Below, one piece after another: positions 4,908-52,309 of a stretch of DNA of 64,000 nt. This DNA is from Mobula hypostoma (taxonomy: Eukaryota). The stretch spans positions 43,340,001-43,404,000 of the forward strand of contig NC_086097.1 in assembly GCF_963921235.1 (NCBI RefSeq). The letters run 5' to 3'. Positions within the stretch are counted from its first letter, which is position 1, and every line of letters starts with the position of its first letter. The notes beneath the pieces are model-generated. The model worked only from the letters and a program-made list of their open reading frames with translations. It made no database searches and had not been told where the DNA came from. A program made the translations under genes and the position numbers.

Positions 4908-5895
4908 AGAAAAAGGCCACCTCCAACAGGATCCCACCACTAAGCACATCTTTCCCTCCCCACCTCTTTCTGCTTTCCGCAGGGATTGCTCCCTACGCGA
5001 CTCCCTTGTCCATTCATCCTCCCCGTCCCTTCCCACCGATTTCCCTCCTGGCACTTATCCTTGTAAGCGGAACAAGTGTTACACATGCCCTTACACTTCC
5101 TCCTTCACCACCATTCAGGGCCCCAGACAGTTCTTCCAGGTGAGGCGACACTTCACCTGTGAGTCGGCTGGGGTGATATACTGCGTCCGGTGCTCCCGGT
5201 GCAGCCTTCTATATATTGGCGAGACCTGGCGCAGGCTGGGAGACCGTTTCGCTGAACACCTACGCTCTGTCCACTGGAGAAAGCAGGATCTCGCAGTGGC
5301 CACACATTTTAATTCCACATCCCATTCCCATTCTGATATGTCTATCCACAGCCTCCTCTACTGTCAAGATGAAGCCACACACAGGTTGGAGGAACAACAC
5401 CTTATATTCTGTCTGGGTAGCCTCCAACCTGATGGCATGAACAATGGCTTCTCTAACTTCCGCTAATGCCCCACCTCCCCTTCGTACCCCATCCCTTATT
5501 TATTTATTAATTATTCCCCCCCCCCTTCTCTTTTTTTTTCTCCCTCTGTCCCTCTCACTATAACTCCTTCCCTATCCTCTGGGCTCCCCTCTCCTTAGGC
5601 CTCCCGTCCCATGATCCTCTCCCTTCTCCAGCTTTGTATCCCTTTTGCCTATCACCTGTCCAGCTCTTGGCTCCATCCCTCCTCCTCCTGTCTTCTCCTA
5701 TCATTTTGGATCTCCCCCTCCCCCTCCCACTTTCAAATCTCGTACTATCTCTTCTTTCAGTTAGTCCTGACGAAGGGTCTCGGCCTGAAACGTCTACTCT
5801 CCCTCTTCCTATAGATGCTGCCTGGCCTGCTGCGTTCACCAGCATTTTTTGTGTGTTTTGCTTGAATTTCCAGCATCTGCAGATTTCCTCGTGTT
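4908..5895 (+). mobile_element. 5'-truncated Penelope-like element (GIY-YIG part plus pseudo-LTR) inserted in L1
   Basis: GVIYCVRCSRCSLLYIGET..RFAEH..LQPDGMN; 12-bp TSD TCCATCCTAGAT at 4896-4907 and 5896-5907. Confidence 0.93.
5763..5798 (+). ncRNA. minimal type I hammerhead ribozyme motif (stem I mismatch)
   Basis: AGTC-CTGACGA-AGGGTCTCGGCCT-GAAA-CGTC-TACT. Confidence 0.7.
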
Positions 5896-8640
5896 TCCAT
5901 CCTAGATTGTCCATCATTACATTGCTCAGATTTATACAGTTTAGAATAAAAACTCTTAAACACAACATTAATCATTTTAGAATTACTAGTGAGGGCTCCT
6001 GTCCCATCCCTAATTGAAGCAATAGTCTGAGGGGCATTTTTCTTTCTCGCTAAATAAGCCAAATACCTACCTGGTTTCTCATCATGTTCAAACAATCGTT
6101 GTTTAGCAAATGTCAATTTTCTTTTGGCTGCTTGGGTAAGTAAAGAAATTAGTGTACAGCATGGGGCTGTGATATTCTGTAACTTGGTTGCAGAAGGCTT
6201 ATTAATATCATCCTTTTCAGCTGCCGCAAGCCTTGCTTCCACTAGGCACTGCTGTTCCGCAGCTTGTCGCTTCTTACCACCAGAGTAGGAGGTAATTAAT
6301 CCCCTTGCATAGGCCTTAGCGGTTTTCCAGATCATCGATGGACTACTAGCTGATTTGGAGTTAATAGATAGGAAAGTTTTGAATTTGGAAGTAAAGTAGT
6401 CTATAAATTTATTAACTTTTAGAATAAAAGGACTCAGCCTCCAATGTCTAGATTGTGCTGAATTATCTTTGGGCTTAATATTTAAATATACTGCTGCATA
6501 GTCAGAAATAGCGATATTTCCAATTGTGCAGGATACAACTAAATCCAGGAGCGCTTTGGGGGTTAGAAAAAAGTCTATTCTGGTGTAACACTTGTGTGGA
6601 TTAGAAAAAAATGTGGTCTTTGTCTGAGGGATGTAACAACCTCCAGATATCCACAAGTCCTAGTTCTCCACATAAGCCCATGATTTGTTTGGACTGTGAG
6701 GAGAGCAATGGGGGAACACGAGGCACCCTGTCCATCAATGGGTCCATGAGACAATTAAAATCCCCACCTACAATAATGTTTTGTATTGAAAAGCTTGTAA
6801 GTCTGAAAAAAGCATCTGTTAGGAATTTGAGAAGATGAGCTGGAGGGCAGTAAACATTGAGAATACCATATTTCTCACCAGATATTGAAGCCTTAACAAT
6901 CACAAATCTCCCATACTTATCCTTAATGCAGTCTAATAACATAAAAGGTAAGTTCTTCCTAATTAAAATGGCCACCCCCCACTACTTCTGGGATTAAAAG
7001 ATGAAAAATAGACTTGATCAAATCCACTCTGTTGAGGTTTAAGATGTTCTCTATCATTTAAATGTGTCTCCTGCAATAAGGCTATATCCACCCTTTCCTT
7101 TTTCAGGTTTAGTTGGAATTTCTTTCTCTTGATTGGTGAATGACTCCCTGTAATGCACAATTTTAATATATTACTGGTCATAACCCTTTATAACAATCAT
7201 GTGACTCCGGAGGAGAAGAAACCAGACTTAAGATCAGCTGAGCAACAATAAGTAAATAAAGAAAATCCACGAAAAAAAAACAAAGCGCCAACAGCGCTGA
7301 ACAAGAGGGCTTATCCCACACTTAAAGGGAATATCTGAATTTCTAACACCCCATATTCTGCCCCACTGCCAATATGGCATTTAACATGGTCAAAAATGAA
7401 AACGACATAATTTATCAATCCACCGATTTGTTACCATCATGTTTAAACTCCTTCAGGCTGGAGCAGCACCGCTAATTTAAACAAATAATGAAACTGTATA
7501 AATCAAAACAAACACGTTACCCATCCTATAAGATACCTTTTCATTACTCGACAGCAAGATAAAATAAAGCGACCATTGTGCATGTTATTGTCCATAACCA
7601 GGGCTACACAATATACTGTATACATTCTTTAGCCCAACGTGTCCACAAAAGATTTAGCTTTGCCAAGAGAATCAAATATCTTGGTGGTCCTGTTGTAGGT
7701 GATTTTCAGCGCCGCTGGGTATAGCATAAAGTACTGGATTCTGGATTCCCTCAACCGCTTCTTTACCTGGTCGAATTCCTTGTGCTTCCGAATAATGGCT
7801 GCTGAAAAATCTTGAAAAAATATAAGCCTAGATCCCTCTTATATTAAGGCCTGGGCATCAGTTCCGCAGCACCTCGAAGCCTCCATCACTCTTTGATTAT
7901 CACCAACATTATCGAACTGCATGAGGAGGGGTCGAGGGCGTTGGCCTGGGCCCGGTTTTGGCGCCAGCATATGGTGAGCTCTTTCCACTTTAATGCGTCC
8001 AGCCTTGGTTTCCAAATCAAGGAAATTAGGCAGCCAGCCCTCAAAAAACGTCGCTGGTTGGCTGCCTTCTGTACCTTCAGGTAGACCGATGATTCGTATA
8101 TTCTTGCTCCTACCTCTGTTCTCAAGATCATCGATATAGTCAGACAGGCTTTGAACTTGCTTTTCTAGCGCCCGGATGCGGCTTTGGGCCTGATCAGTTA
8201 CAGTTCCTACCACGGAGGCTCAGCCCTCAGCTTCAGTCGTTCTTGTATCAATATTTTTAAGCTCCACTGTGTGGTTTTGGAGTGTTAGACAGAGTGGAGC
8301 CAACTTCTCATCCATCATTTTGGATATGTTCTCCGTAACTTCCTGAATTACTTGACGAAAAGCAGGGTCCAACGTGTTAGCATAGCTAGCAGTAGCTAGC
8401 TCCTCAGCCCCAGGCGAGCACTCTGTGCAGTCCATCCTGGACGCCTTTTTAGTACTTTTCAATGGCATGGTGTTGAAGCAGCTCAAAAAAACACTCACCA
8501 ATGATCATGTCATTAAATCCAACACTTGAGCATTGTAAAAAAAAAAAGTTGAAACGGATAGGTTTATATGCGAAATTATCAGTGTTGCGGTGCTGAGCTC
8601 AACAAAGCAGACTTTCCACTGCACTGCCATCTTGAAACTT

Positions 8641-9868
8641 CCTGATTGAACTTTTTGAGGATGTGATTAAATATGTTGATGAAGGTAGAGCAGAAGATGT
8701 AGTGTATATGGATTTCAGCAAGGCACTTGATAAGGTACCCCATGCGAGGCTTATTGAGAAAGTAAGGAGGCAAGGGATACGGGGGGGGGCTTGCCTTGTG
8801 GATCCAGAATTGGCTTGCCCACAGAAGGCAGAGTGGTTGTAGATGGGTCATATTCTGCATGGAGGTTGGTGACCAGTGGTGTGCCTCAGGGATCTGTTCT
8901 GGGACCCCTTCTCTTCATGATTTTTATAGATGACCTGGATGAGGAAGTGGAGGATGGGTTAGTAAATTTGCTGATGACACAAAGGTTGGAGGTATTGTGG
9001 ATAGTGTGGAGGGCTGTCAGAGGTTACAGCGGGACATTGATAGGATGCAAAACTGGGCTGAGAAATGGCAGCTGGAGTTCAACCCAGATAAGTGTGAGGT
9101 GGTTCATTTTGGTAGGTCAAATATGATGGCAGAATAAAGTATTAATGGTAAGTCTCTTGGCGGTATGGAGGATCAGAGGGATCTTGGGGTCCGAGTCCAT
9201 AGGACACTCAAAGCTGCTGTGCAGGTTGACTCTGTGGTTAAGAAGGCATACGGTGCATTGGCCTTCATCAACCATGGGATTGCACTTAAGAGCCAAGAGG
9301 TAATGTTACAGCTATATTGGACTCTGTTCAGACCTTGGAGTACCGTGCTCGGTTCTGGTCACCTCACTACAGGAAGGATGTGGAAACTATAGAAAGAGTG
9401 CAGAGGAAATTTACAAGGATGTTGCCTGGATTGGGGAGCATGCCTTATGAGAATAGGTTGAGTAAACTTGGCCTTTTTTCCTTGGCGTGACGGAGGATGA
9501 GAGGTGACCTGATAGAGGTGTGTAAGATGATGAGAGGCATTGGTTATGTGGATAGTCAGAGGCTGTTCTCCAGGGCTGAAATGGCTATCATGAGCGGGCA
9601 CAGTTTTAAGGTGCTTGAAAGTAGGTACAGAGGAGATGTCAGGGGTAAGTTTTTTACGCAGAGTGTGGTGAGTGCGTGGAATAGGCTGCTGGCGATGGTG
9701 GTGGAGGTGGATACGATATGGTCTTTTAAGAGACTCCTGGATAGGTACATGGAGCTTAGAAAAATAGAGGGCTATGGGTAACCCAAGGTAATTTCTAAAG
9801 TAAGTACATGTTCAGCACAGCATTATGGGCCAAAGGACCTGTATTGTGCTGTAGTTTTTCTATGTCTC
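8641..9868 (+). mobile_element. CR1 LINE ORF2, 3' part and tail
   Basis: LIELFED..VYMDFSKA.., [28 protein letters not shown]; tail gtagtttttctatgt. Confidence 0.9.
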
Positions 9869-11448
9869 TAAATGTTGAAATCGAGCTTACAGGCATCACT
9901 TGTGCTGGTAGCTCGTTCCACGCTCTTGTGACCCGCTGAGTGATGAAATTTCCCCTCATGTTCCCCTTAAACTTTTCACCTTTCACCCTCTACCCATTAC
10001 CTCGAGTTGTAGTCTCACCCAACCTCAGTGGAAAAGCCTGTTTACGTTTACCCTATCTATACCTCTCATAATTTTGTATACCTCTATCAAATGTCTTCTC
10101 ATTCTTCTAGGTTACAAGAAATAAAGTCCTAACCTACTCAATCTTTCCTTATAACTCAGGTCCTCCAGACCTGGCAATGTAGATTTTCTCTGTACTCTTT
10201 CAACCTTATTTACATCTTTCCAATAGACAAGTGATGAGAACTGCACACAATTCTCTCAATTATGCTTCACCAATGCCTTATACAACACCTGTACTCAGTA
10301 CTTTGATTTAGGAAGGCTAATGTGCCAAATGCTTTCTTTTATGACCATATCTACCTGTGATGCCACTTTAAATGAATTATGGACCTGTATTCCCAGATTT
10401 CTTTGTTCTACCACATTCCTCAGTGCTCTACCGTTCACTGTGTAAGACCTACCCTGATTGGTCCTACTGCAGTGCAATGCCTTGCACTTGTCTGCATTAA
10501 ATTCCATCTGCCATTTTTCAGCTCATTTTTCCAGCTGGACCAGATCTCACTGCAAGCCTACCTCACTGTCCACTACACCCCCAATCTTGGTATCATCTGC
10601 AAATTTCCTGATCCAGCTAACCACATTATCATCCAGATTGTTGATATAGATGACAAACAACAACAGGTCCAGCACCAGTTCCTGCGGCACTCCACTCATC
10701 ACAGGCCTCCAGTCAGAGAGGCAAACATCTACTACCACTCTGGCTTCTCCCACAAAGCCAATGTTTAATCCAGTTTACTATCTCATCTTGAATGCCAAGT
10801 GACTGAACCTCTTGACCAACTTCCCATGCACTATATTTTCAAAGGACTTGCTGAAATCCATATAGATAACATCCACTGCCTTCATCAACTTTCTTGGTAA
10901 CTTCCGCAAATATCTCTATAAGACTGGTTAGACATGACCTATCATGCACAAAGCCATGCTGACAATCCTTAATCGGACCATGTCTATCCAAATACTTATA
11001 CATATCTGGTCCCTTAGACTACTTTCCAATAATTTTCCCACTACTGATGTCAGACCAACTGGCCTATAACCTCCTGGTTTGTTTTTAGAGCCTTTCTTAA
11101 ACACTGGAACAATATTGGCTTTCCTCCAAACCTCTGGTAGCTCACCTGTTGCTAAGGATGATTTAAGTATTTCTGCTAGGCCCCCGACAATTTCTGCACT
11201 TGCCTCTTCTAGGATCCGAGGGAATGCTTTGTCAGGCCCTGGGGATTTATCCACCTTAATTTGCCTCAGGACAGCAAACACCTCCTCGTCTGTAATCTGA
11301 TAGACTCCATGAAGTCAATGTTGCTTTGTCTCACTGCTATAGACCCTGTGTTTGTCTACAGATAAAAAAAAATTATTACAAATGCAGAAAAATAATTTAA
11401 GATCTCCCCCATCTCTTTTGACTCCACACATGAATTACCATTCTGATC
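9869..11448 (-). mobile_element. older CR1 LINE body (outermost element of the nest)
   Basis: Minus-strand ORFs with DKSPGPD, GYRPVGLTSVVGK, SGVPQE, KFADDTKIGG, MEFNADKC. Confidence 0.9.
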
Positions 11449-11594
11449 CAAAATGATGTGAGAGCATCATTTTGCTGTTGCTTGTTAGTAGGTAGGTGGC
11501 TATCTGGTGCTTCAGTTTGTAAATGGAGCATTTTGATCTATTACACTAATTAATATATTTGTAAATGAATTTCACAAAATTTTTGTTACTCTAA

Positions 11595-11910
11595 AGTAGT
11601 CTTTCTCTGAGTCAGGAGGCTATTGTAGTTCTCAGTCAAAGTTCTGAGAATATAATCTAGAGTGGTTCAAGAGATTCCGCTCTTGAGCCAATGTTAAACA
11701 AAGGCCTAATCCAATTCTTCAATGGACATCTAAAATTTTATGGCATAATTTACGGAAAAACAGAGGTCTTCTAACATGATTATCAATATGTTTTACTGAT
11801 CAAATGCTATTTATTGTGTTTTCTTGTTCACAAAATAGTTGCCACATACACTTACTTAGTAGTCATCAAACTGTAGTAATGTATTATATTCAGATTGATA
11901 AAATTTTGTG
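11595..11910 (+). mobile_element. ancient Deu-domain-like SINE remnant
   Basis: tctgagtcaggagg head; atgttaaacaaaggcc..tggacatctaaaa..atggca resembles the recalled DeuSINE (SacSINE1/AmnSINE) central domain; heavily decayed. Confidence 0.4.
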
Positions 11911-12814: not shown

Positions 12815-13300
12815 TCATCATCGTTCAAGTGCCTTGCCGTTCAGTGTCGGCGATCATGTCTCTCCATCCACTATGATCCCTGACCCTCTGAATTGTAGTT
12901 GTTGCCTTCCCTGTTTCTAACCGTGATGTTATTCCATCTGTCATTTTCATTCTTTGTCTGCCTCTGCTTCTTTTTCCTTCCAGCTTTCCAGTTGTAACTA
13001 AATGTTCTAATGTCTCTCTTCGCATGACGTGTCCAAAAAATTTTGATTGCTGTTTACTGATTTTTTTTAAAGTAATGTACGTTTTGTTTTCGTTCTCTGT
13101 AGAACTTCTTCGTTGGTTATCCTGTCCGTATATGATATGCATAGCATTCTTCTGAGGAACCCCATCTCTGCTGCATTGATTCTTTTTTGTATTGCATTTG
13201 TGATGGTCCATGACACGCAGCCATACATCAATGTAGGAGGAATGTAGCAGCTGAGAGTTCTAAGGCGGATGTCAATTGCTATTCTCTTTAACATTACCAT
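12815..13300 (-). mobile_element. RTE-clade LINE 3' fragment
   Basis: LMYGCVSW..INAAEMGFLRRML..DRITNEEVL and FFGHVMRRETLEHLVTTGKLEGKRSRGRQR; short (GAT)n tail. Confidence 0.85.
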
Positions 13301-14457: not shown

Positions 14458-14906
14458 GTAAGATGAGAGAAATTGGCATATTGCTTAACATTTTGCTGTC
14501 CCCCTAATGTATTTAATTGATAATTTGAAATTAATAATATGCTCAAAAGTAATTAAAACTGTAAATATTTTTGATGCAAGCCTAATATCATTACAGTACA
14601 ATACAAAATATAGCAGGTAACCAACAGCAAGATGGCGTTCATTGCCTTTCAAGTAACGTCATATAAAGGGTATACTGATTTTTGCCAGGTGGTGAAGGTG
14701 ACAATCTATTCTAAATATTTCTAAAAGGATTTTAGATATTACTTTAAGGCAGATTTCACAGACTGAATATGCAAATTATCAGGATTTCCTAGAAAGGTTC
14801 TTTTCAGTCATTTATTGGATGTGCATACCATAAACAAAACCGGTGTTCATTCTTCAAAGTTGCTGGTGAATGCAGCAGGCCAAGCAGCATCTATAGGAAG
14901 AGGCGC

Positions 14907-14942
14907 AGTCGACGTTTCAGGCCGAGACCCTTCGTCAGGACT
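14907..14942 (-). ncRNA. minimal type I hammerhead ribozyme motif (intact)
   Basis: Minus strand AGTC-CTGACGA-AGGGTCTCGGCCT-GAAA-CGTC^GACT; stem I AGTC/GACT, palindromic ACGT, GUC triplet. Confidence 0.8.
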
Positions 14943-15224
14943 AACTGAAGGAAGAGTGAGTAAGGGATTTGAAAGCTGGAGTGGGAGGGGGAGATGCAAA
15001 ATGATAGGAGAAGACAGGAGGGGGAGGGATAGAGCCGAGAGCTGGACAGGTGATAGGCAAAAGGGGATACGAGAGGATCATGGGACAGGAGGTCCGGGAA
15101 GAAAGATGGGGGGTGGTGACCCAGAGGATGGGCAAGAGGTATATTCAGAGGGACAGAGGGAGAAAAAGGAGAGTGAGAGAAAGAATGTGTGCATAAAAAT
15201 GAGTAACAGATGGGGTACGAGGGT

Positions 15225-16416
15225 CCAAACTAAAGGTGTAGCTATGGGCACCCGTATGGGTCCTAGCTATGCCTGCCTTTTTGTTGGGTTTGTGGAACAA
15301 TCTATGTTCCGTGCCTATTCTGGTATCTGTCCCCCACTTTTCCTTCGCTACATCGACGACTGCATTGGCGCTGCTTCCTGCACGCATGCAGAACTCGTTG
15401 ACTTTATTAACTTTGCCTCCAACTTTCACCCTGCCCTCAAGTTTACCTGGTCCATTTCCGACACCTCCCTCCCCTTTCTAGATCTTTCTGTCTCTGTCTC
15501 TGGAGACAGCTTATCCACTGATGTCTACTATAAGCCTACTGACTCTCACAGCTATCTGGACTATTCCTCTTCTCACCCTGTCTCTTGCAAAAACGCCATC
15601 CCCTTCTCGCAATTCCTCCGTCTCCGCCGCACCTGCTCTCAGGATGAGGCTTTTCATTCTAGGACGAGGGAGATGTCTTCATTTTTTAAAGAAAGGGGCT
15701 TCCCTTCCTCCACTATCAACTCTGCTCTTAAATGCATCTCCCCCATTTCACGTACATCTGCTCTCACTCCATCCTCCCACCACCCCACTAGGAATAGGGT
15801 TCCCCTGGTCCTCACCTACCACCCCACCAGCCTCCGGGTCCAACATATTATTCTCCGTAACTTCCGCCACCTCCAACGGGATCCCACCACTAAGCACATC
15901 TTTCCCTCCCCCCCTCTCTCTGCATTCCGCAGGGATCGCTCCCTACACAACTCCCTTGTCCATTCGTCCCCCCCATCCCTCCCCACTGATCTCCCTCCTG
16001 GTACTTATCCGTGTAAGCGGAACAAGTGCTACACATGCCCTTACACTTCCTCCCTTACCACCATTCAGGGCCCCAAACAGTCCTTCCAGGTGAGGCATCA
16101 CTTCACCTGTGAGTCGACTGGGGTGATATACTGCGTCCGGTGCTCCCGATGTGGCCTTTTATATATTGGTGAGACCCGACGCAGACTGGGAGACCGCTTT
16201 GCTGAACATCTATGCTCTGTCCGCCAGAGAAAGCAGGATCTCCCAGTGGCCACACATTTTAATTCCACATCCCATTCCCATTCTGACATGTCTATCCACG
16301 GCCTCCTCTACTGTAAAGATGAAGCCACACTCAGGTTGGAGGAACACCACCTTATATTCCGTCTGGGTAGCCTCCAACCTGATGGCATGAACATCGACTT
16401 CTCTAACTTCCGCTAA
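15225..16416 (+). CDS. Penelope RT (C-terminal half), Cys-rich linker and GIY-YIG endonuclease; 5'-truncated
   Basis: C-terminal ~396 codons of track ORF 14815-16416, with no stops; the N-terminal RT motifs are missing. Confidence 0.85.
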
Positions 16417-16719
16417 GGCCCCACCTCCCCCTCGTACCCCATCTGTTACTCATTTTTATGCACACATTCTTTCTCTCACTCTCCTTTTTCTCCCTCTGTC
16501 CCTCTGAATATACCTCTTGCCCATCCTCTGGGTCACCACCCCCCCCCCGTCTTTCTTCCCGGACCTCCTGTCCCATGATCCTCTCGTATCCCCTTTTACC
16601 AATCACCTGTCCAGCTCTCGGCTCTATCCCTCCCCCTCCTGTCTTCTCCTATCATTTTGCATCTCCCCCTCCCCCTCCCCCTCCAACTTTCAAATCCCTT
16701 ACTCACTCTTCCTTCAGTT

Positions 16720-16755
16720 AGTCCTGACGAAGGGTCTCGGCCTGAAACGTTGACT
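16720..16755 (+). ncRNA. minimal type I hammerhead ribozyme motif (GUU triplet)
   Basis: AGTC-CTGACGA-AGGGTCTCGGCCT-GAAA-CGTT^GACT. Confidence 0.78.
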
Positions 16756-18209
16756 GCGCCTCTTCCTACAGATGCTGCTTGGCCTGCTGCGTTCACCAGC
16801 AACTTTGATGTGTGTTGCTTGAATTTCCAGCATCTGCAGAATTCCTGTTGTCTGCTTTTAATTCTTCTTAAGCACATCATCCCTGTTGGGCAGAGGCTGC
16901 TGACAGCAGTTCATTAGAGTACTCTACCCTGGGCTAGTCTTGCATGTTTTCCATCACAGAAGATCCTTCTTCTCCTAGGGATTAGGTCTTTGGAGCTTCT
17001 GTTGGCATTTCTTTAGTTCTGGGTTTATATGGGAAGGGATTGCTAGCCTCATGCCCAATCCTTCTCCTTTTGTAGCCAAGCTTAGGACCATCCAATATTT
17101 GCTCTAGAGAAGGTGGTGGTGAGCTGATTTCTTGAACTGCTGAAGCTCTCCCATAGAAGTTATCCCCACGGTCTTTTTGAGTAGGGTGTTCAGGCAGTTT
17201 GATCCAGCAGCCGTGAATGAACAGTATTTCATTTCCAAATCAGACTTGTACCCATTGAATAGGAACTCACTTTGACAGGGTACAGGATTGTTTAAGTTCT
17301 CCTCCGCTGTATGGAGATGTTGTGCCTTCTGGACATAAAATCTGCAAACAGGAACTAAGACAAACAATTATGTGATGTTCTGGTGGGAGTCCAATTGAAT
17401 AAATCATGGTTGCTCAACAGTTGGGTTGTATCTGCTTTCAACTCAAGTAGCATGATGTTGCAGGCCTTTACAATGACATCTCAGTCCATAAATAAAGTGA
17501 TTGCTTTTTTTGGAAATTTAAAAATATAGTCACAGCAATATATGCAACTCTCCCTTGCTTGGCTTGCACCCAATGAATAGCACCTTTGAATAGAACTTAT
17601 GATACCCTAGCCTTGAACATTAAGCAATCACTTCCAAGAAAGTATTAAGCAACTATTTGGTGGAGGTCAGAAGAGAAATGGCAGTAAGGGCCAAGCAAAA
17701 CACCACCAGTTTTTACTTCACAACCTTCATCACTCTACCCTTCAAATACATAGGAATGCCATCACCCACAAGTTTTTCTTTGAGTCACCTATTATATCTG
17801 CTTGAATATACTTCACTATTTAATCTTTTGTTGCTGGATCACAACTCTAGAACAGTTTTGCCAATAGAATTCAGAGGTTTCTTCACAAGAGGGAGCACAG
17901 TGGTTGAAAAAGGCCACTTTCTCATGCAAATCTGCATTGTATATAACCGTGAGCCTTTTTAACAATGGCTTGATGCCAAGTAATTGACGTAAAAGTTAAA
18001 TTGTTTCAAGAGGCATTTGGGTAGATTTTGCATTCATATGGTTTCTCATATACTGTCCAGAGTTTAAAGAACTGGGTTTATTTTATTTGCTTCATATATT
18101 TAAGACTTTTAAAGATTGAATTAAATTTCTATTAGAATCTTGAAGCAAAATCAATAATTCTGTTTTTCATTGTTTATCAATGTTATTTAACTTAAAGGTT
18201 ACAATTGAT

Positions 18210-20172
18210 TGTCTGTCCCTGCTCCTGCTGCAATGAACTTGTGTCTGAAAACCTCGCCTCCACTGTATCCCCCTTGGTTTAGTCCCTTCTCACCTACATC
18301 CACGACATTTCATATGCTGTCAATCTCTTCAATAACATTAAATTCTGTGGCCCGAACTGCCTCATTTTCACCATGGATGTCCAATCCCTATACACTTCTA
18401 TCCCCCATCAAGAAGGCCTTAAAACTATCCACTTCTTTCTCAACAAAAAAATGGGTTTTAGAGTTTATTTTATATTCTTTGTCATGCTGCAAAATGTTGA
18501 GCTGCTAAACTGTGTTTCATTGCTCCACAACAATGACAATAAAGATCTTCTTCTTATTCTTCTTCAACCATTCCCCTCCACCACCACCCTTTTTCATTTA
18601 GCTGAACTGCTCCTCACCTTCAACAATTTGTCCTTCAGCTCTTCTCACTTTCTCCAAACTCATGAGGTAGACATGGACATCCACATTGGCCCCAGTTATA
18701 TTGGCTATGTGGAATAGTCCATGTCCTAAGCTTTCCTTGGTAATGCTCCCCAATTCTTTTTGTGCTACATTGATGATTGTATTGGTGCTTCATGCACCCA
18801 TGCTGAGCTCTTCAATTTCATCAACTTTGCATCCAACTTCCACACTGCCCTTAAATTCATTTGGTCCATTTCTGACACCTCGCTCCCCATTCTCGATTGA
18901 TTTTTTTTTTTCTGTCTCCATCTCAGCAGACAAACTGTCTACTGATATCTTTTATAAACCTACCAATTCCCACAGCTATCTTGGCTATACCACTTCCCAC
19001 CCTGTTCCCTGTGAAAATGCTATTCCCTTTTCACAGTTCCTTCGTCTCCACCACATCTTTTCCTAAGAAGAGGCTTTCCTTTCCAGGACATCAGAGGTGT
19101 TGTCCTTCTTCAAAGAACAGGATTTCCCTTCTTGATGCTGTCCTCACCTGCATCTCCTCTATTGCCCAGTCATCCATGCTCACCCCTTCTGCCTGCCATC
19201 TTAACAGGGATAGAGTTCCTCTTGTCCTTACCTACTGGCCCATGAGCCCCCACATCCAACACGTCATTTAACTTCCACCATTTTCAACAAGATCCTACCA
19301 CAAAAAACATCTTTCTATGGGAATCACTCTCTCCATGATTCCCTTGTCCGTTTGTCCTTCTCCACTTTTCCCCCTCCTGGCATGTATCCCTGCAAGCAAT
19401 AGGAATGCTACGCTTGCCCATTCACCTCCTCTTTCACTGCTGTTCAGGGCCCCCAACAGCCCTTCCAGGTGAGGCAACACTTCACCTTTGAATCTGTTCA
19501 GGTTGTCTGCTGTATCTAGTGCTTTTGATGTGGCCTCCTCTACATTGGTAAGACCCGATGCAAATTGGGGAACCACTTTGTCAAGCACCTTCACTCCACC
19601 TGTAAAAATCAGAATTGCCCAGCAGCCAACCATTTTCATTCCTATCCACTTTACCGTTCCGACATGTTAGTCCATGGCCTCCTCTTCTGCCACCATGATA
19701 TCACTCTCAGGGTGGAGGAGCAACACCTCATATTCTATCTAGGTAGCCTCTAATCTATTGCCATGGACATCAATTTCTCCTTCTGGGAATTGTTTTTCTC
19801 CACTTTTCCTCTTCTATTCCCCATTCTGGTCCTCATCTTCTCCTCACCAGCCTACCACTGTCCCCTATTGTCCCCTCTTCATTTCTTTTTTCCCATAGAC
19901 GATTATTCTTTCCTGTTATCAGATTCCTTCTTCTCTAGCCCTTTGCCTTTACCACCTATCACTTCCCAGCTTCATCCCTCCCTCCTCCACCCACCTAGCT
20001 TGACCTATCACCTTCTAGCTTGTCCTCCTTCCCCTCTATCCACCTTTAATTCTGGCATCTTCCCCCTTCCTATACAGTCCTGATGAAGGGTCTCAGCCCG
20101 AAATGTCAACTGTTTATTCACTTCCATAGATGCTGCCTGACTTGCTGAGTTCCTCCAGCATTTTGTGTGTGT
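18210..20172 (+). mobile_element. older, decayed Penelope-like element (RT, GIY-YIG and pseudo-LTR)
   Basis: MDVQSLYTSIPH, YIDD-like tacattgatgat, DIFYKPTNSH, NAIPFSQFLRL, LRVEEQHLIF; many stops; unrelated ~120-bp insert at ~18445-18565 ending aataaa..(ctt)n. Confidence 0.88.
20076..20111 (+). ncRNA. minimal type I hammerhead ribozyme motif (diverged)
   Basis: AGTC-CTGATGA-AGGGTCTCAGCCC-GAAA-TGTC-AACT. Confidence 0.65.
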
Positions 20173-20271
20173 TTTATTTTAGATACTGATTTTACATTGC
20201 TATGCTAAACCAAGTCTAAAACGTATTTTCGTTTAAAAGAGAGATTTATAATAAAACAGTTAAGCATACAG

Positions 20272-25390: not shown

Positions 25391-25767
25391 GAACTGTGCA
25401 TGCAGTTTTAGTCTCTTTACCCAATAAAGGATGTACTGTATGCAGAATACTGAAGGCTCACTGAACTGATACTTGGGGGGGAAAAAGGAACTGTTGTATG
25501 AGAAGCGACGGAGCAGTTTGACTGGTAGTCTAATCATTAGAGCTTAGATCAACAAGAGGGGATCTCAGTGGCAGAATGGATACAGAGAGAATGATTCTCC
25601 TCGCTGAAGGGTCTGAAATGAGGAGGCAGTGTCTTAAGTATATGGACCAAGGCATTTAGAACTGAGATAGAGGAAAAATTTCTTCAGAACTTGATTTTTC
25701 TACTACAAGAGCTAGTGAAGGCCGTCTGTTCACACTTCATACGGGTTGATACATTTTGTCTTCACAA

Positions 25768-28196
25768 ATCTCCAACCTGAGAGTGGCCTCAACATGGCAG
25801 TAGAGGAGGCCATGGATCGATATGTCAGAATGGGAATCAACTTGATCATGGACAAGGATAGATCTGGTCCTAGGCTTGAGGTCCTGAACTGGAAGAAGGC
25901 TAAATTTGAAGAAATGAGAAAGGATCTAAAAAGCGTGGATTGGGACAGGTTGTTCTCTGACAAAGATGTGATCGGTAGGTGGAAAGCCTTCAAAGGAGAA
26001 ATTTTGAGAGTGCAGAGTTTGTATGTTCCTGTCAGGATTAAAGGCAAAGTGAATAGGAATAAGGAACCTTGGTTCTCAAGGGATATTGCAACTCTGATAA
26101 AGAAGAAGAGGGAGTTGTATGACATGTATAGGAAACAGGGAGTAAATAAGGTGCTTGAGGAGTATAAGAAGTGCAAGAAAATACTTAAGGAAGAAATCAG
26201 GAGTGCTAAAAGAAGACATGAGGTTGCCTTGGCAGTCAAAGTGAAGGATAATCCAAAGAGTTTTTACAGGTATATTAAGAGCAAAAGGATTGTAAGGGAT
26301 AAAATTGGTCCTCTTGAAGATCAGAGTGGTTGGCTATGTGCGGAACCAAAGGAAATGGGGGAGATCCTAAATAGGTTTTTTGCGTCTGTATTTACTAAGG
26401 AAACTGGCATGAAGTCTATGGAATTAAGGGAAACAAGTAGTGAGATCATGGAAACTGTACAAATTGAAAAGGAAGAGGTGCTTGCTGTCTTGAGGAAAAT
26501 TAAAGTGGATAAATCCCCGGGACCTGACAGGGTGTTCCCTCGGACCTTGAAGGAGACTAGTGTTAAAATTGCAGGGGCCCTGGCAGAAATATTTAAAATG
26601 TCGCTGTCTACAGGTGAGGTGCCGGAGGATTGGAGAGTGGCTCATGTTGTTCTGTTGTTTAAAAAAGGATCGAAAAGTAATCTGGGAAATTATAGGCCAG
26701 TAAGTTTAACGTCGGTAGTAGGTGAGTTATTGGAGGGAGTACTAAGAGACAGCATCTACAAACATTTGGATAGACAGGGACTTATTAGGGAGAGTCAACA
26801 TGGCTTTGTGCGTGGTAGGTCATGTTTGACCAATCTATTGGAGTTTTTCAAGGAGGTTACCAGGAAAGTGGATGAAGGGAAGGCAGTGGATGTTGTCTAC
26901 ATGGACTTCAGTAAGGCCTTTGACAAGGTCCCGCATGGGAGGTTAGTTAGGAAAATTCAGTCGCTAGGTATACATGGAGAGGTGGTAAATTGGATTAGAC
27001 ATTGGCTCAATGGAAGAAGCCAAAGAGTGGTAGTAGAGAATTGCTTCTCTGAGTGGAGGCCTGTGACTAGTGGTGTGCCACAGGGATCAGTGCTGGGTCC
27101 ACTGTTATTTGTCATCTATATCATTGATCTAGATGATAATGTGGTAAATTGGATCAGCAAATTTGCTGATGATACAAAGATTGGAGGTGTAGTAGACAGT
27201 GAGGAAGGTTTTCAGAGCCTGCAGAGGAACTTGGACCAGCTGGAAAAATGGGCTGAAAAATGGCAGATGGAGTTTAATACAGACAAGAGTGAGGTATTGC
27301 ACGTTGGAAGGACAAACCAAGGTAGAACATACAGGGTTAATGGTAAGGCACTGAGGAGTGCAGTAGAACAGAAGGATCTGGGAATACAGATACAAAATTC
27401 CTTAAAAGTGGCGTCACAGGTAGATAGGGTCGTAAAGAGAGCTTTTGGTACATTGGCCTTTATTAATCAAAGTATTGAGTATAAGAGCTGGAATGTTATG
27501 ATGAGGTTGTATAAGGCATTGGTGAGGCCGAATCTGGAGTACTGTGTTCAGTTTTGGTCACCAAATTACAGGAAGGATATAAATAAGGTTGAAAGAGTGC
27601 AGAGAAGGTTTACAAGGATGTTGCCGGGACTTGAGAAACTCAGTTACAGAGAAAGGTTGAATAGGTTAGGACTTTATTCCCTGGAGCGTAGAAGAATGAG
27701 TGGAGATTTGATAGAGGTATATAAAATTATGATGGGTATAGATAGAGTGAATGCAAGCAGGCTTTTTCCACTGAGGCAAGGAGAGAAAAAAAACAGAGTA
27801 CATGGGTTAAGGGTGAGGGGGGAAAGTTTAAAGGGAACATTAGTGGGGGCTTCTTCACACAGAGAGTGGTGGGAGTATGGAACGAGCTGCCAGATGAGGT
27901 GGTAAATGCGCGTTCTTTTTTAACATTTGAGAATAAATTGGACAGATACATGGATGGGAGGTGTATGGAGGGATATGGTCCGTGTGCAGGTCAGTGGGAC
28001 TAGGCAGAAAATGGTTCGGTACAGCCAAGAAGGGCCAAAAGGCCTGTTTCTGTGCTGTAGTTTTTCTATGATTTCTATGGTTTTCTATGGGAATGGGGAG
28101 TGGAATTAAAATGGTTGGCCACTGGGAAATCTTTCTGTTGCGGACGGAGCAAAGGTGCTCGACAAAGTAGTCCCCTAATCTATGTCAGGTCTCACT
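25768..28196 (-). mobile_element. Penelope GIY-YIG fragment (25768-25837 and 28087-28196) split by a CR1 insertion
   Basis: Both pieces are reverse-complement homologues of consecutive parts of 16170-16345. Confidence 0.75.
25838..28086 (+). mobile_element. young 5'-truncated CR1 LINE with a nearly intact RT frame
   Basis: Track ORF 25746-27905: [39 protein letters not shown]; single frameshift near 27820; (TTTCTATGR)n tail; 8-bp TSD ATGGGAAT at 25830-25837 and 28087-28094. Confidence 0.95.
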
Positions 28197-32296: not shown

Positions 32297-32336
32297 CAGT
32301 TAAATGTTTCGGGTTTGAGACCCTTCATCAGAACTG
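32297..32336 (-). ncRNA. degenerate hammerhead motif in an old solo pseudo-LTR
   Basis: Minus strand CAGTT-CTGATGA-AGGGTCTCAAACCC-GAAA-CATT-TAACTG. Confidence 0.55.
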
Positions 32337-41870: not shown

Positions 41871-42519
41871 TTAAATTATACTGTTTTCCCTTTAAATGTA
41901 AATTGTGAAGTCTCTGATTCTGCCAAGTTGAGAAACAATATCAAGCCAGAAATGGGAATTTGAGAATTTAGAATTAAATATTGGGAGTACCATGGTGAAT
42001 AAGACTGTAGAAACAAAAAGTTACAAATACAATGCACTAGATTTATAGAATTAACAAAATCCATTTTCACTTTGCCAAGTCTGCATTTTTAATTTATTGA
42101 AACAGTTAAAAGAGAAAGCTTCCATAAGAATCAAGATGTTCAAATTGCAATAGTAATAAATTTGTTAAAATCTTAAGTATTATTACATTGGTGGTGATGG
42201 TGAACTGGAGAAAGAGGCAGTGGAGAAGCTGGATGTTTTTATTAACCAGGGGTACTTCTATTTTAAATTGTTTAACTCATTTTTAAAATACAGCAAAGAA
42301 GGTAATACATTTGTAACTGATTGTCAAATGTATGCTTGGGATTTACATGAAATTAAATCTCTCTAGTTCTTTGCTTGTAAATTTTGTCTGGGTAATATCA
42401 AACACTCAGTGTATTACATGTAGTGTTGGACGTGTTACAATCTCCTTAAAAAATAGAAATAGAAGTTTCTTTTCAACAATTCTGAGATCTAGTGTAAGAA
42501 CGAATATTCAACATTTTAA

Positions 42520-42638
42520 GCAACACACACAAAAAAATGCTGGTGAATGCAGCAGGCCAGGCAGCATCTATAGGAAGAGCTACAGTGAACGTTTCAGGCC
42601 GAGACCCTTCGTCATCTGCAGATTTCCTCGAGTTCGTG
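42520..42638. mobile_element. 119-bp Penelope pseudo-LTR micro-insertion with an internal inversion
   Basis: 42520-42614 inverted pseudo-LTR piece joined to forward catctgcagatttcctcg; 13-bp TSD TTCAACATTTTAA at 42507-42519 and 42639-42651. Confidence 0.85.
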
Positions 42639-47800: not shown

Positions 47801-48079
47801 ATTTGTAAAACAGTTTTTGGTTTATTTTTAAAACTGCTAACACCAAGGGAACAGGTCCTTGGAGCTAGCAGTTGTCCGTGTTAGTGGAATAGATATACCC
47901 ATGTCAACAGTTTTCAGTCATTGTTCCCCAGTGTTAGCTCTACACAATTCACAGCAGAATCCCGAACAAAATCACCACTATAATAAAATTTGAAAAGCGC
48001 TGTGGCTGAAGACCAGCTCCTGGCTCCAATGTCATTACTTCTTATCCTGTAGCGAAGGTTTGCAAGCAGTATGCGACAG

Positions 48080-48130
48080 CTATACTACAGTCCCACTCGG
48101 CGAATTGGCTTGGTTTTGGGATGACAAGCC
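48080..48130 (-). CDS. WDR20: WDR20 distal alternative terminal coding exon
   Basis: gtttacag|GGC; 51 nt, phase 0; GLSSQNQANSPSGTVV*, the SPxGTVV C-terminus of the WDR20/DMWD family. Confidence 0.92.
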   Translation of the reverse strand, partial: GLSSQNQANSPSGTVV

Positions 48131-49264
48131 CTGTAAACATAGCATTTCATATTGTTATATCTCTGACACTCGAACTGAACATTACTTCATTTCTCTATGA
48201 CCTAATTAATTGTTTCATGTTTTCTGATGAGGCATAACGGCATAAGTAAATTAGGATTTTTTTTATCTTGATAATTGGGAACTTTATCCTGATAAAGTTT
48301 TGCTTCAATATCGACTTGAAATTTCAAATAAAAATAATGTAACTCATAAAGTTCCATATTAACACCAAGTTATTCATTTTCTATATTCTGGTTCTAGATA
48401 AAATTTGATTATCTAAATAAAACTTTTATTGTACACTTAAGAACAGACCATTGGAAAATATTTTGTAGCAGGTTGACCAACTCTAACATTAGAACACGGG
48501 GTATAATTTGGATTGCCCATCCCAGGCATACAAAAGCAGTTTTGTATTTCATCTTTTCCATGATGCTTACAAATAGGAACAACAAATTGTATTGGAAAGT
48601 GTCATCAAATCAAATTAATGGTGTTAAATGACAAACTCAGTCCATTTCTTTACAAAATTAGTACAGTTCTGCTGAAATTTACTTACACATAATAGAATCA
48701 AGTTGATAAAGTCAGCAAACAATGCCTGACCATGAAAATATACTTGTGTGCTACTCCGAGCCATCATTTCCATGCTCCTCCTCCCTCCCCCCGCCCCCAA
48801 GTTACTTGGATTACATATAAAATTACACATAAGCTACAAGGTCTCATACATACTAATCTAGATCAGAAATCAGCTTTAATATTTTAGTCTTAAGGGCACT
48901 TGCTTCAGTAAGTGTTTGTTTAAACTAAGATTTACAATTGTTCTAAATTTATACCATTACTAAACCAATATGCATTCCACAATTTTATCTTTTGGAATTA
49001 GAAACTCATCAGATGCACATAAGTGGGAGTGTCTCCAATCAGATTCACTTTAGGGTTCCCATACAGAGCTGGAGTGAGAGATAAATTACAACTATTAAAA
49101 TAAATTAGAACTAAATATAATCATGGTTAAAGAATCTACAGCACTAAGTCATGCGCCAGAAATGCAAAAGTAGCACTGAATTGGTAGGTCAGTGAGATTT
49201 GAGTTATTTAGATATGCTGATAATCTGCATTGATTAAGATGATTATCTGGAGCTTCAGAGGTTA

Positions 49265-50025
49265 GTGATTGTTACCTATGATTATGATAAATGAGTAGAC
49301 AGACAGGAGAGAGATAGACCAGCTGATTGAGTGGTGTTGCAACAACAACCTTACACTCCAGGTCAGAAAGACCAAGGAATTAATTGCAGATTTCAGGAAG
49401 GAAAAGTCATGGGAACATACACCAGTAGTCATCAACCAGCCCTGGAAAGGCTGAGCAGTTTCAAGTTCCTGGGCATCAACATCTTTGAAGATCTTTTCTG
49501 GGCGCAACATATTGGTAGAATTACAAAGAAGGCATGACAGTGGCTAAATTTCTTTAAAAGCCTGGTACATCATCATAATCTAGAAAATTTCTGCACATAT
49601 ACTGTGGAGAGTTTTCTAACTGGCTACATGACAATCTGGTATGGAGGTCTCTGCAAAGGATCGAAAAAGGCTATATCATGGGCACTAGACTCCCCATCAT
49701 CGAGGACATCTTAAATACATGATGCCTCAAAAAGACTATATCCATCATTAAGGACCCCCATCATCCAGGCCATGCCCTCTTATTGCTACCATCAATATGG
49801 TGGTACAGGAGCCTGTAGATACACACATTTTAGAAACAGCTTCTACCTCTCTGCCGTCAGATTTCTGAATGGTCAATGAACCCATGTACACTACCTCACT
49901 TTCTTTTGCTCTGCTTTTGCTCTACTTTTTATTTTAATTATTGGAAGATGTAGCTTTTATTATGTATTACACAGTACAGCTGCTGCAAAACAACATATGC
50001 CAATGATATTAAACCTGAATCCAAA
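49265..50025 (+). mobile_element. Rex/Babar-like LINE 3' fragment
   Basis: Collinear with 21140-21870; SSFKFLGINI; gatattaaacctga end. Confidence 0.8.
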
Positions 50026-51535
50026 CTTTAAATTGTAATTACAATTGAGTTGCAGACTGCTAAGTGTTGATCTTAACTTTTATTAGAATTTCCATATTAA
50101 AAAAAAACGATCATTCGAGAGTACCATGTTGAATCAGGGCCAGATCATGATGCAGGAGCTTCCACTGATTTTGACATATCTACCCAATTGTAAAGGACTG
50201 TTGCAACTACCTCAAGTTGGCTCAATGCAAAATTTGGAAATATCTTTCTAAGCAGAATTATTTGTTCTTGCATAATAAATTCAATTGAGTTAAAATGCCA
50301 TTTCCTATACACCCTGGTGCAAAAAGTGAACAATAAACATGATACATCAAGTCATGTAAAACTTGCGGATAATTCTCAGTTTGGCTTAATTTCCCTAATC
50401 TTGGAATTCTCAAAGACCAATTGCCAAGATATGCCATGTAGAGGAAGGATGAATTCAGGGGTACAGGCAAAATAGATGTAAAGTATTGAATGAATACTTT
50501 GCGTGTATTCAAAGTGGGGAAATGATAAAAGCACTGGCACTGAAGAATGAACAAATAAGCAAAAGAAGGGGTAAACCAAATAACATTAGCAGGAAGCAAC
50601 AACCATTAGTAGGAAAACCCTTATAAAATTTCTGAATGACAGCACAAGGTCAAGTCTTACGGACACAAGTAAGCATGACACAGTGTCAATAAAGGCAGAA
50701 CATTTGACAATTTATATTTTAGTGAGGTACTTCATAAGGTTCCATATGCCAGATCAATTAAGTAAAAGCTGAAGGACAATGGAAAAGCCAGTCATAAGCA
50801 CAAGAAGGTCTGCAAATGCTGGAAATCTGGAAAGATGTGATTAAGGGGCAGGTAACAACGGTTAATGCCAGATGGGAATTTTAGCAATCGAAAGGATGCA
50901 CAGAGAGCTGCAGGGCTCACAATAGGCAGCTTGCTTCTGATATACAAATGATTAGACCCAATTAGACAGATCATTAAGTTTGCCACTACCAGAAAATGTA
51001 ATAGGCCTGGGCTACAAGAAATTGCTAGTTAGAAAGGCACAAGACTGTCAAATGAAATGCAATCCAGAAATGTCTGTGGTGATGTATTTGGAAGGGCTAA
51101 ATGTGGAAAGAAACATACAGTAACCATATAGTAAGGGAAGAAAGGAACAAGTTAAGATGGCATGTATATCCACAAGTTTCTAAAAATAGGATAAGAGATA
51201 AAGGTGTTAAAGAGTACCAGCTGTCACTGGCCAAGGCACAGAGGAAAAGTTGGAATCAGCCTACAATTTTATGAAATGTGTTATGGATGGAGTTTTGATT
51301 ACCACAGTACGGGAAGGAAGAAGTATTGAGGTTTACAAGGACATGGTCATTGTTGTATATTTAGAAAATCAAGATGGGCACTGTTTTCTTTGAAACAAAG
51401 GAAAATTAAATAAAGTTCAATATGATTTTTTTTGAGAAAAGGGTAAACTACAAAGACTTTCTTCTTTTAACTAGGGCATTAAAGTTTGAATTAATTGGCA
51501 GCATTTGAGAAAGGTAACCTTTCAGGTCAATAGCT

Positions 51536-52309
51536 GCAACACATACAAAATGCTGGTGAACACAGCAAGCCAGGCAGCATCTATAAGAAGAGATACAGTC
51601 GACGTTTCGGGCCGAGACCCTTCGTCAGGACTAACTGAAAGAAGAGATAGTAAGAGATTTGAAAGTGGGAGGGGGAGGGGGAGATCCGAAACGATAGGAG
51701 AAGACGGGGGGGGGGGGGGAGGAGGCTGGAGTGGAGCTGAGAGCTGGAAAGTTGATTGGCAAAAGGGATACGAAGCTGGAGAAGGGAGAGGATCATGGGA
51801 TGGGAGGCCTAGGGAGAAAAAAAGGGGGAGGGGAGCAGAGGAAGATATAGTGAGAGGAACAGAGGGAGGAGAGAGAGAAAGAAAGGGGAAAAAATAAAAA
51901 ATAATAAATAAGGGATGGGGTAAGAAGGGGAGGAGGGGCATTAACGGAAGTTAGAGAAGTCAATGTTCGTGCCAACAGGTTGGAGGCTACCCCAACAGAA
52001 TACAAGGTGTTGTTCCTCCAACCTGAGTGTGGCTTCATCTTGACAGTAGAGGTGGCCATGGATGGACATATTAGAATGGGAATGGGACGTGGAATTATAT
52101 GGCCACTGGGAGATCCTGCTTTCTCAGGCGGACAAAGCATAGGTGTTCAGCGAAATGGCCTCCCAGTCTGCGTCGAGTCTCGCCAATATATAGAAGGCCG
52201 CACTGGGAGCACCAGATGCTATATCACCCCAGCTGACTCACAGGTGAAGTGTCGCCTCACCTGGAGGGACTGTCTGGGGCCCTGAATGGTGGTGAGGGAG
52301 GAAGTGTAA
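51536..52309 (-). mobile_element. 5'-truncated Penelope-like element in the WDR20 last intron
   Basis: Reverse-complement homologue of ~5090-5862 (GIY-YIG part plus pseudo-LTR). Confidence 0.92.
51597..51632 (-). ncRNA. minimal type I hammerhead ribozyme motif (intact, best consensus)
   Basis: Minus strand AGTC-CTGACGA-A-GGGT(CTCG)GCCC-GAAA-CGTC^GACT. Confidence 0.82.

What the first reader, a model, noticed from the sequence alone, without database searches (positions are those of the whole stretch)
5763..51632. Family of seven minimal type I hammerhead ribozyme motifs in Penelope pseudo-LTRs
Seen: a ~36-nt motif, AGTC-CTGAnGA-A-GGGT(loop)RCCY-GAAA-YRTH-GACT, recurs at 5763(+), 14907(-), 16720(+), 20076(+), 32297(-), 42584(-, broken) and 51597(-). 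The CUGAnGA and GAAA boxes persist even in old copies with diverged flanks. Stem II variants keep pairing (G-C to G.U, U.G to U-A), and the oldest copy keeps stem I as CAGTT/AACTG. Established: Penelope-like elements carry minimal type I hammerheads with a tiny palindromic stem III (here ACGT), thought to cleave as dimers. Inference: these are self-cleaving RNA motifs that the ORF track does not show. The class is known; I cannot tell whether this lineage's variant, with an extra A before stem II, has been described.
Basis: partly seen in the sequence, partly recalled or inferred. Interest (0 to 1): 0.75.

Follow-up and report, generated by a model that had tools for sequence, protein, structure and literature searches.

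The report
Penelope retrotransposon ends with minimal hammerheads
The seven motifs are copies, mostly decayed, of a tiny predicted self-cutting RNA already known from Penelope-type jumping genes; across this genome the short copies begin at the motif's front edge rather than at its cutting site, which likely means they were copied from uncut RNA that starts there.

Summary
All seven motifs are real (6 descriptor hits vs 0 in 20 shuffles). They lie in the pseudo-LTR of a Penelope-like element with Neptune-type zinc motifs, about 0.6 million 3' ends per genome. Full-length copies have a 1016-aa RT/GIY-YIG ORF between two same-strand hammerheads 3.5 kb apart. The class is published, and so is the extra base before stem II (Cervera 2014). 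Only three window copies are intact. Most differences between copies are CpG decay, and the core is not protected after insertion. Constraint shows only between subfamilies (85% vs 60-66% flank identity). Less ordinary: about 14% of copies start 3 nt before the core, against 0.9% at -12 and 1.7% at the cut site. All 20 cut-site starts fetched are head-to-head joints, 19 explained by microhomology. The RNA therefore likely starts at the ribozyme and is copied uncut; I found no genomic trace of cleavage. The scan noted this run-off pattern before, in this genome and others. Verdict: new member of a known kind.

The parts
5762..5799 (+). Hammerhead copy, young subfamily; closing pair of stem I broken (G1.1 to T)
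4908..5895 (+). 5'-truncated PLE copy (end of ORF with GIY-YIG, pLTR, long tail), between a 12-bp target-site duplication at 4896-4907 and 5896-5907
14906..14943 (-). Intact hammerhead in the inverted arm; predicted cut between 14911 and 14910
14856..15223 (-). Inverted 5' arm (pLTR copy with short tail), head to head with the forward copy
15224..16860 (+). 5'-truncated PLE body: C-terminal RT, CX4CxxC linker, GIY-YIG/CCHH endonuclease (stop 16414-16416), pLTR, long tail; 98% identical to full-length copy L202; candidate 7-bp duplication at 14849-14855 and 16861-16867
16719..16756 (+). Hammerhead with all pairs kept and a GUU triplet; predicted cut between 16751 and 16752
16766..16841 (+). Predicted stem-loop downstream of the ribozyme, as conserved between subfamilies as the ribozyme; candidate RT binding/initiation region with the two tail ends (inferred)
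18208..20194 (+). Older, broken PLE copy of another subfamily (68-77% identity)
20075..20112 (+). Decayed hammerhead with four CpG-type changes
32297..32336 (-). Old divergent hammerhead: U-A closing pair in stem I, 5-nt loop II, extra U at the cut site
42511..42614 (-). Short copy 5'-truncated at U4 of the core (no C3, no 5' strand of stem I)
51596..51633 (-). Intact hammerhead with canonical G10.1-C11.1; predicted cut between 51601 and 51600
51536..52309 (-). 5'-truncated PLE copy carrying that hammerhead

Best explanation
These are inherited, mostly decayed genomic copies of the minimal type I hammerhead motif in the pseudo-LTR of a very abundant Penelope-like retrotransposon, whose RNA likely starts at the first bases of the motif and is likely copied into DNA uncut. 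Shown: motif, element anatomy, full-length tandem arrangement, copy number, and the pile-up of 5' ends at -9..-1. Inferred steps: (1) An internal promoter in the upstream pLTR starts the transcript at about -3/-4 (YYAG context), with a minor start at -7/-8 in the young subfamily. (2) Alone, the ribozyme folds into an inactive rod in which G5-G8 pair with the cleavage triplet, so cutting would need the second hammerhead 3.5 kb downstream or the element's protein. (3) The RT starts at either of two sites about 100 and 137 nt downstream of C3; when it starts in the upstream pLTR it runs off the RNA 5' end after 100-140 nt. (4) Such cDNAs insert alone, or as head-to-head pairs joined through 3-4-nt microhomologies that the ribozyme's own helices supply. 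Cleavage, if it occurs, likely acts as an occasional brake or processing step on the master RNA (it would remove a leader of about 31 nt) and is not required for insertion.
For: Motif and non-randomness.
Element: RVT_1 and GIY-YIG hits, both below curated cut-offs. CX4CxxC linker and CCHH pattern (clade traits from PMC8557442). Four loci (L201, L202, L212, L217) of 20 fetched have an unbroken 1043-codon frame between two same-strand hammerheads, 3511-3519 nt apart in the six measured.
5' ends in an unselected 1.2-Mb sample: 43 of 198 at -9..-1 (4.8 per base), against 0.15 per base at -85..-26 and 1.0 at +27..+29. Simulated uniform truncations gave no such peak.
Whole-genome counts, normalised: -12 0.85%, -7 4.0%, -3 13.8%, +24 0.96%, +28 1.7%, +31 0.34% (normalised).
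Cut-site starts: 20 of 20 fetched are head-to-head joints, 19 using GACT or GAC microhomology. The remainder is about 0.45%, not different from the +31 control (p = 0.18).
Several -3 starts abut their target-site duplication directly (L254, L278, L284, L286, L290), so they are not spliced to a host exon.
Rod fold is 4 kcal/mol below the open-core fold.
One long and one short tail in 20 of 22 close pairs (p = 1.5e-5).
An old subgroup carries C at core position 6 (6 of 11 copies); A6C strongly lowers Mg2+ cleavage in other hammerheads (PMC7151607 passages).
In the anole PLE the hammerhead is protein-assisted and not needed for insertion in vitro, and RT starts internally at two sites (PMC11167929). 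In D. virilis Penelope the promoter and start site lie in the pLTR (PMC2377424 passages).
Against: No transcript start was observed; the start site is inferred from DNA ends alone. The G excess before -3 (1.9-fold) does not prove a cap, because many such G come from inverted-arm ends or from re-priming at an internal repeat of the same three letters. The peak is broad, with a shoulder through the ribozyme (1.6 per base at 0..+26). The percentages rest on only 21-32 pattern matches in the sample (about 20% error), and the -3 pattern covers more subfamilies than the -12 pattern. The core is unchanged in three of four subfamily consensuses, so something selects for it in master elements, which fits a real cleavage role. 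Joints of the CAG-GACT class (58 of 100 listed) are also what cleaved RNA would give.
Confidence: 0.68

Rival explanations
1. The hammerheads cleave as dimers in tandem transcripts and this is an obligatory step (unit-length or circular RNA as RT template), as proposed by Cervera and de la Pena; cleaved RNA gives the joints at +28.
For: Same-strand hammerhead pairs flank intact ORFs. The core and the ACGU palindrome are kept in subfamily consensuses. Starts at +28 are 5-fold above +31 before microhomology is considered. Dimers cleave weakly in vitro (PMC4209133).
Against: 20 of 20 fetched +28 starts are inverted joints. A similar 4-nt microhomology class at +24..+27, which needs RNA intact across the cut site, looks as frequent (46 of 100 listed of 300, vs 58 of 100 listed of 222; the class was read from flank letters and not fetched). 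About 14% of copies start upstream of the core. An A6C subgroup spread. Core mutants did not impair insertion in the anole element.
Confidence: 0.17
2. The 5'-end pile-up is not a transcript start but a barrier or processing point: RT drop-off at the pyrimidine tract, a 3' splice site just before stem I (as in D. virilis Penelope), or trimming during joining.
For: A pyrimidine tract ending in CAG precedes stem I in all four consensuses. In D. virilis the intron end maps to helix I. The peak is broad.
Against: Copies starting at -3 have unrelated flanks, and several abut their TSD with no exon sequence. Splicing would give starts at -2 or -6 with a constant or exon-like flank.
Confidence: 0.12
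3. The motif is no longer a working ribozyme in this lineage; it is kept as promoter or protein-binding sequence.
For: G.U at 10.1-11.1 in the youngest subfamily; A6C in an old subgroup; the downstream block is equally conserved, 85%; rod fold.
Against: All core letters, the palindrome and both stems are kept in three of four subfamily consensuses while N7 and loop II vary. That is the pattern of a hammerhead, not of a generic promoter.
Confidence: 0.12

Closest known systems
Minimal hammerheads (min-HHR) in pLTRs of metazoan PLEs, including fish Xena, Poseidon and Neptune (Cervera and de la Pena 2014, PMC4209133; read parts 1-2 of 4: results, discussion, bioinformatic methods; 2 of 3 supplements searched by term)
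   Same: Type I topology, CUGANGA/GAAA core, 5-bp helix I, unpaired base between 9 and 10.1, palindromic 15.2-16.2 with no loop III, position in pLTRs, mostly solo copies, opposite-strand pairs close together.
   Different: Helix II is 4 bp here (7-8 bp in Schistosoma). The young subfamily has G10.1.U11.1. About 0.6 million element ends and roughly 12% intact motifs (23 of 198), against 4,000-9,000 motifs reported for coelacanth and Xenopus. No shark or ray terms were found in the searched supplements (file 1 not searched).
PAc, Poseidon element of Anolis carolinensis (Frangieh et al. 2024, PMC11167929; read parts 1-2 of 4)
   Same: Partial tandem, hammerhead near the pLTR-ORF junction, two 3' ends defining a tail, both target strands primed (fits the head-to-head pairs here).
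   Different: Poseidon clade. In PAc the ORF starts inside stem II; here the likely start codon lies about 166 nt downstream of C3 (L202: C3 at 2837, ATG at 3003).
Neptune-clade EN+ PLEs (Craig et al. 2021, PMC8557442, introduction and passages; Arkhipova et al. 2013, PMC3846280, passages)
   Same: RT plus C-terminal GIY-YIG with CCHH, CX2-5CxxC linker, partial tandems, inverted 5' pLTR, one-sided 30-40-bp tail, TSDs.
   Different: Neptune versus Nematis was not resolved by a tree. A pile-up of 5' ends at the ribozyme's front edge was not seen in the passages read.
Non-LTR retrozymes (Li, Clavereau and Pollet 2026, bioRxiv 10.64898/2026.07.22.740005; part 1 of 5 and passages)
   Same: Type I hammerheads related to PLE pLTRs in vertebrates, including one chondrichthyan.
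   Different: Retrozymes are tandem non-coding units; the window copies are dispersed ends of a coding element.

Membership tests
Minimal type I hammerhead of PLEs | Core C3UGANGA9 and G12AAA, NUH triplet | tested here: met
   six window copies; consensuses Y, M, O2 (O1 has C at position 6)
Minimal type I hammerhead of PLEs | Helix I open-ended (type I), helix II hairpin | tested here: met
   5-bp and 4-bp stems in 14938, 16724, 51628
Minimal type I hammerhead of PLEs | Palindromic 15.2-16.2, helix III absent | tested here: met
   ACGU; predicted duplex only -3.1 kcal/mol
Minimal type I hammerhead of PLEs | Unpaired base between 9 and 10.1 | tested here: met
   A in 27 of 27 young copies; trait published
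Minimal type I hammerhead of PLEs | G10.1-C11.1 pair | tested here: inconclusive
   G-C in 55 and G.U in 47 of 119 copies; G.U is the majority in the youngest subfamily
Minimal type I hammerhead of PLEs | Compensatory covariation in stems | tested here: inconclusive
   one-sided changes between subfamilies (C-G/U.G, U.G/U-A); two-sided U-A in 4 of 117 at the stem I closing pair, Fisher p = 0.44
Minimal type I hammerhead of PLEs | Located in both pLTRs of a PLE | tested here: met
Minimal type I hammerhead of PLEs | Self-cleavage (dimer or protein-assisted) | not testable with these tools
   no biochemical test; no genomic excess of non-microhomology starts at the cut site
EN+ Penelope-like element, Neptune/Nematis type | Single ORF with RT and C-terminal GIY-YIG | tested here: met
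   P0001, 1016 aa; RVT_1 E 5e-5, GIY-YIG E 0.002, both below curated cut-offs
EN+ Penelope-like element, Neptune/Nematis type | CX2-5CxxC linker and CCHH motif | tested here: met
   linker motif at residue 883; cysteines before YIG and downstream histidines at 913-965
EN+ Penelope-like element, Neptune/Nematis type | Partial tandem or inverted pLTR, tail, TSD | tested here: met
Neptune clade specifically | RT phylogeny with named Neptune elements | not tested
   no named reference sequences among the 120 listed homologues
Non-LTR retrozyme | Tandem non-coding units each with a hammerhead | tested here: not met
   window copies are dispersed and attached to ORF remnants or inverted arms

The most novel reading that the evidence does not exclude
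In this Neptune-type family the hammerhead is the first 36 nt of the element's RNA. The RT starts just downstream and runs off the uncut 5' end, making strong-stop-like cDNAs of 100-140 nt. These insert alone or as head-to-head pairs stitched by the ribozyme's own helix complementarity, which would explain why solo minimal hammerheads are so numerous in animal genomes. The ribozyme would act as a decapping brake on the master RNA, not as a step of transposition.
Probability: 0.5. Interest if true: 0.55.

Novelty: new member of a known kind. Interest (0 to 1): 0.3.

Why it matters
The motif class and the 'extra A' are published, so the finding as posed is ordinary. Its value is as a large natural data set (about 0.6 million ends) on an open question: what PLE hammerheads do. 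The junction statistics favour copying from uncut RNA that starts at the ribozyme, in line with the 2024 in vitro result that cleavage is dispensable for insertion. They give exact, cheap predictions for 5' RACE and for a core-mutant assay. They also warn that apparent cleavage footprints at the cut site can come from stem I microhomology.

Tried and rejected
- Rfam scan: no hammerhead model matched at E <= 1; only a chance Ocean-VII hit. NCBIfam: none.
- Two DNA searches of the own genome came back empty because very common words are skipped; no information.
- A 3' splice site just downstream of the ribozyme (pyrimidine tract, YAG, ATG): rejected, because the M subfamily has no AG there and the ATG opens only a short frame.
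- Excess conservation of the core among inserted copies: not seen. In old groups the non-CpG change rate is 9.5% in the core, 10.0% in stems, 10.7% downstream and 13.7% upstream (flank values inflated by mixed subfamilies).
- Folding z-scores of single motifs are unremarkable (-1.8 to +0.2).
- Cap-templated G: 1.9-fold G excess before -3, but confounded; not claimed.
- Cleavage footprint at +28: not supported once microhomology joints are removed.
- Expression: no RNA holder listed. Contigs of four runs guessed to be RNA were laid on L202:2480-3400; they cannot show starts, strand or level, and no splice-type joint was among the joints shown (15 more not shown).
- Lunse et al. 2016 (PMC5785218) is not held; I saw only its title in the reference list of PMC6765202 and that review's summary.
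- Literature searches for the 5'-end pile-up or a chondrichthyan description found no such report in the passages read; subscription papers and unseen supplements may contain it.
Full report
Observation. A pattern scan finds the CUGANGA...GAAA motif with C3 at 5767(+), 14938(-), 16724(+), 20080(+), 32331(-) and 51628(-), and a seventh copy that starts at U4 at 42614(-). A descriptor needing the core, a stem II of at least 3 bp and NUH gives 6 hits in the window and 0 in each of 20 shuffles; it gives 16 in 600 kb of unselected genome against 0, 0 and 1 in three shuffles. Rfam does not see the motif. Only 14938, 16724 and 51628 keep all helices. Against the 51628 copy, 8 of the 11 differences in four other copies are CpG-type.

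Context. Each motif lies in the 3' end of a repeat that follows an RT/GIY-YIG frame on the same strand. The 14.9-16.9 kb insertion is a 5'-truncated body with an inverted pLTR arm in front, so its two hammerheads are on opposite strands. A search with the 5' part of the ORF gave 30 loci; 20 longer stretches were fetched. In four of these (L201, L202, L212, L217) an unbroken 1043-codon frame lies between two same-strand hammerheads; spacing is 3511-3519 nt in six loci measured. The protein from the likely ATG is 1016 aa, with weak RVT_1 and GIY-YIG hits, a CX4CxxC linker and the CCHH pattern. PMC8557442 gives the linker as the mark of the Neptune and Nematis clades; I built no tree. The best-scoring homologue is from a bamboo shark at 72% identity, so the host is likely a cartilaginous fish (inference).

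Abundance. A profile of the downstream flank alone finds 208 copies in 120 unselected 10-kb stretches and 0 in reversed controls, or about 0.60 million per genome, plus or minus 14%. One exact 33-mer occurs 12,577 times. Of the 208, 198 had enough flank for further work (10 dropped); 23 of 198 keep an intact motif.

What is known. Cervera and de la Pena 2014 (PMC4209133, parts 1-2 of 4 read) describe minimal hammerheads in PLE pLTRs, including fish Neptune elements. They list the base between 9 and 10.1 as a conserved trait and report low cleavage as dimers, none as monomers. Frangieh et al. 2024 (PMC11167929, parts 1-2 of 4) show for an anole PLE that the hammerhead needs the protein, that core mutants still insert in vitro, that RT starts internally at two sites, and that no RNA-seq reads ended at the cut site. 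Inverted pLTRs and one-sided tails are described in PMC8557442 and PMC3846280 (passages). Searches found no description of this family or of the 5'-end pattern below. One supplement of PMC4209133, bioRxiv supplements and Lunse 2016 could not be seen.

Conservation. Among copies found through the flank, the core changes at the same non-CpG rate as the stems and downstream block (9.5, 10.0 and 10.7% in old groups). Only 10 of 73 copies in the two old groups keep all 11 core letters, against 30 of 38 young ones. Between four subfamily consensuses, the ribozyme is 85% identical, the downstream block 85%, the upstream 60 nt 66% and the linker 60%. N7 and loop II vary and the stems are kept, so selection acted on master elements. 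Two departures matter: the youngest subfamily mostly has G.U at 10.1-11.1, and 6 of 11 copies of an old subgroup have C at core position 6, a change that sharply lowers Mg2+ cleavage in other hammerheads (PMC7151607 passages). Two-sided covariation is not significant (4 of 117, p = 0.44). The monomer is predicted to fold as a rod in which G5-G8 pair with 15.2-17, 4 kcal/mol below the open-core fold.

Where copies begin (C3 = 0, cut between +27 and +28). Of 198 copies, 66 extend past -86, 9 begin at -85..-26, 13 at -25..-10, 43 at -9..-1, 42 at 0..+26, 3 at +27..+29 and 15 at +30..+45; the other 7 begin further downstream. Simulated uniform truncations were placed within 3 nt in 71-85% of cases and gave no peak. 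Whole-genome counts of patterns whose three upstream letters exclude the element's own were 84 at -12, 453 at -7, 2351 at -3, 300 at +24, 222 at +28 and 77 at +31 (plus 46, 52, 47, 49). After dividing by flank probability and estimated copy number these are 0.85, 4.0, 13.8, 0.96, 1.7 and 0.34% (denominators from 21-32 sample matches).

The cut-site class. All 20 loci fetched from the head of the +28 list are head-to-head joints: 12 use the GACT shared by the two strands of stem I, 7 a GAC match in stem II, and 1 is rearranged. About 26 of the 100 listed +28 matches have other flanks; scaled up, this is 0.45%, not different from +31 (p = 0.18). At +24, 46 of 100 listed flanks read as an inverted arm joined through another 4-nt match that spans bases upstream of the cut (not fetched). 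I therefore find no trace of cleavage that microhomology does not explain, although the GACT class is also compatible with cut RNA.

The -3 class. Five of 45 fetched -3 starts abut their target-site duplication directly. G before -3 is 1.9-fold enriched, but often comes from arm ends or internal re-priming, so a cap is not shown. In 20 of 22 close head-to-head pairs one arm has the long tail and the other the short one.

Reading. The simplest account is that the transcript starts at the front edge of the ribozyme. The RT then starts at one of two sites 100-137 nt downstream, and run-off cDNAs from uncut RNA make most short copies. This is inferred from DNA ends; no RNA end was observed. Cleavage probably exists as a slow, dimer- or protein-assisted reaction (from the literature) but is not needed for insertion. 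Rivals are obligatory dimer cleavage, a barrier or splice site at the same place, and loss of ribozyme function.

Earlier notes of the scan. Several reach the same run-off reading in this and other genomes; I had stated it before the first look-up. Three notes on other genomes report cut-site footprints, which my test does not reproduce here.

Verdict. Observation confirmed, interpretation supported, novelty low: a new member of a known kind. Interest 0.3.

Noticed in passing
window 57509-58906 (-): 465-codon frame of a host WD40-repeat gene (Pfam WD40 E 1e-14); it resembles WDR20/DMWD by recall only. Upstream repeats may lie in or near this gene.
   Followed up: partly
window 25719-27905 (-), 1687-2055, 8758-9126, 10928-11314: RT frames of another, LINE-type retrotransposon (CR1-like by recall); long frame of 728 codons. 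Not scanned against families.
   Followed up: no
window 3217-8219 (-): Broken L1/Tx1-like element (ORF1- and endonuclease-like pieces, by recall) into which the PLE copy at 4908-5895 is inserted with a 12-bp duplication.
   Followed up: partly
L043, L048, L073, L076, L138 (random genome sample): Old subgroup with C at core position 6 (six copies among 198): a PLE lineage that seems to have spread with a damaged catalytic core.
   Followed up: partly
L266 and L274, at the 5' junction: Letters between flank and element read as one vertebrate telomere repeat unit overlapping the first element base; 2 of 30 loci, may be chance.
   Followed up: no
L258, L263, L269, L271, 5' junctions: Short duplications of the element's own +1..+9 in front of the -3 start, suggesting that the cDNA end re-primes on an internal three-base match.
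   Followed up: partly
window 16766-16841 (+): Predicted multi-branch hairpin downstream of the ribozyme, as conserved between subfamilies as the ribozyme; candidate RT-binding element.
   Followed up: partly
L104:7503-7654, L137:9271-9428: Short tandem re-starts at 5' junctions (repeated 30-70-nt pieces), suggesting repeated template switching.
   Followed up: no
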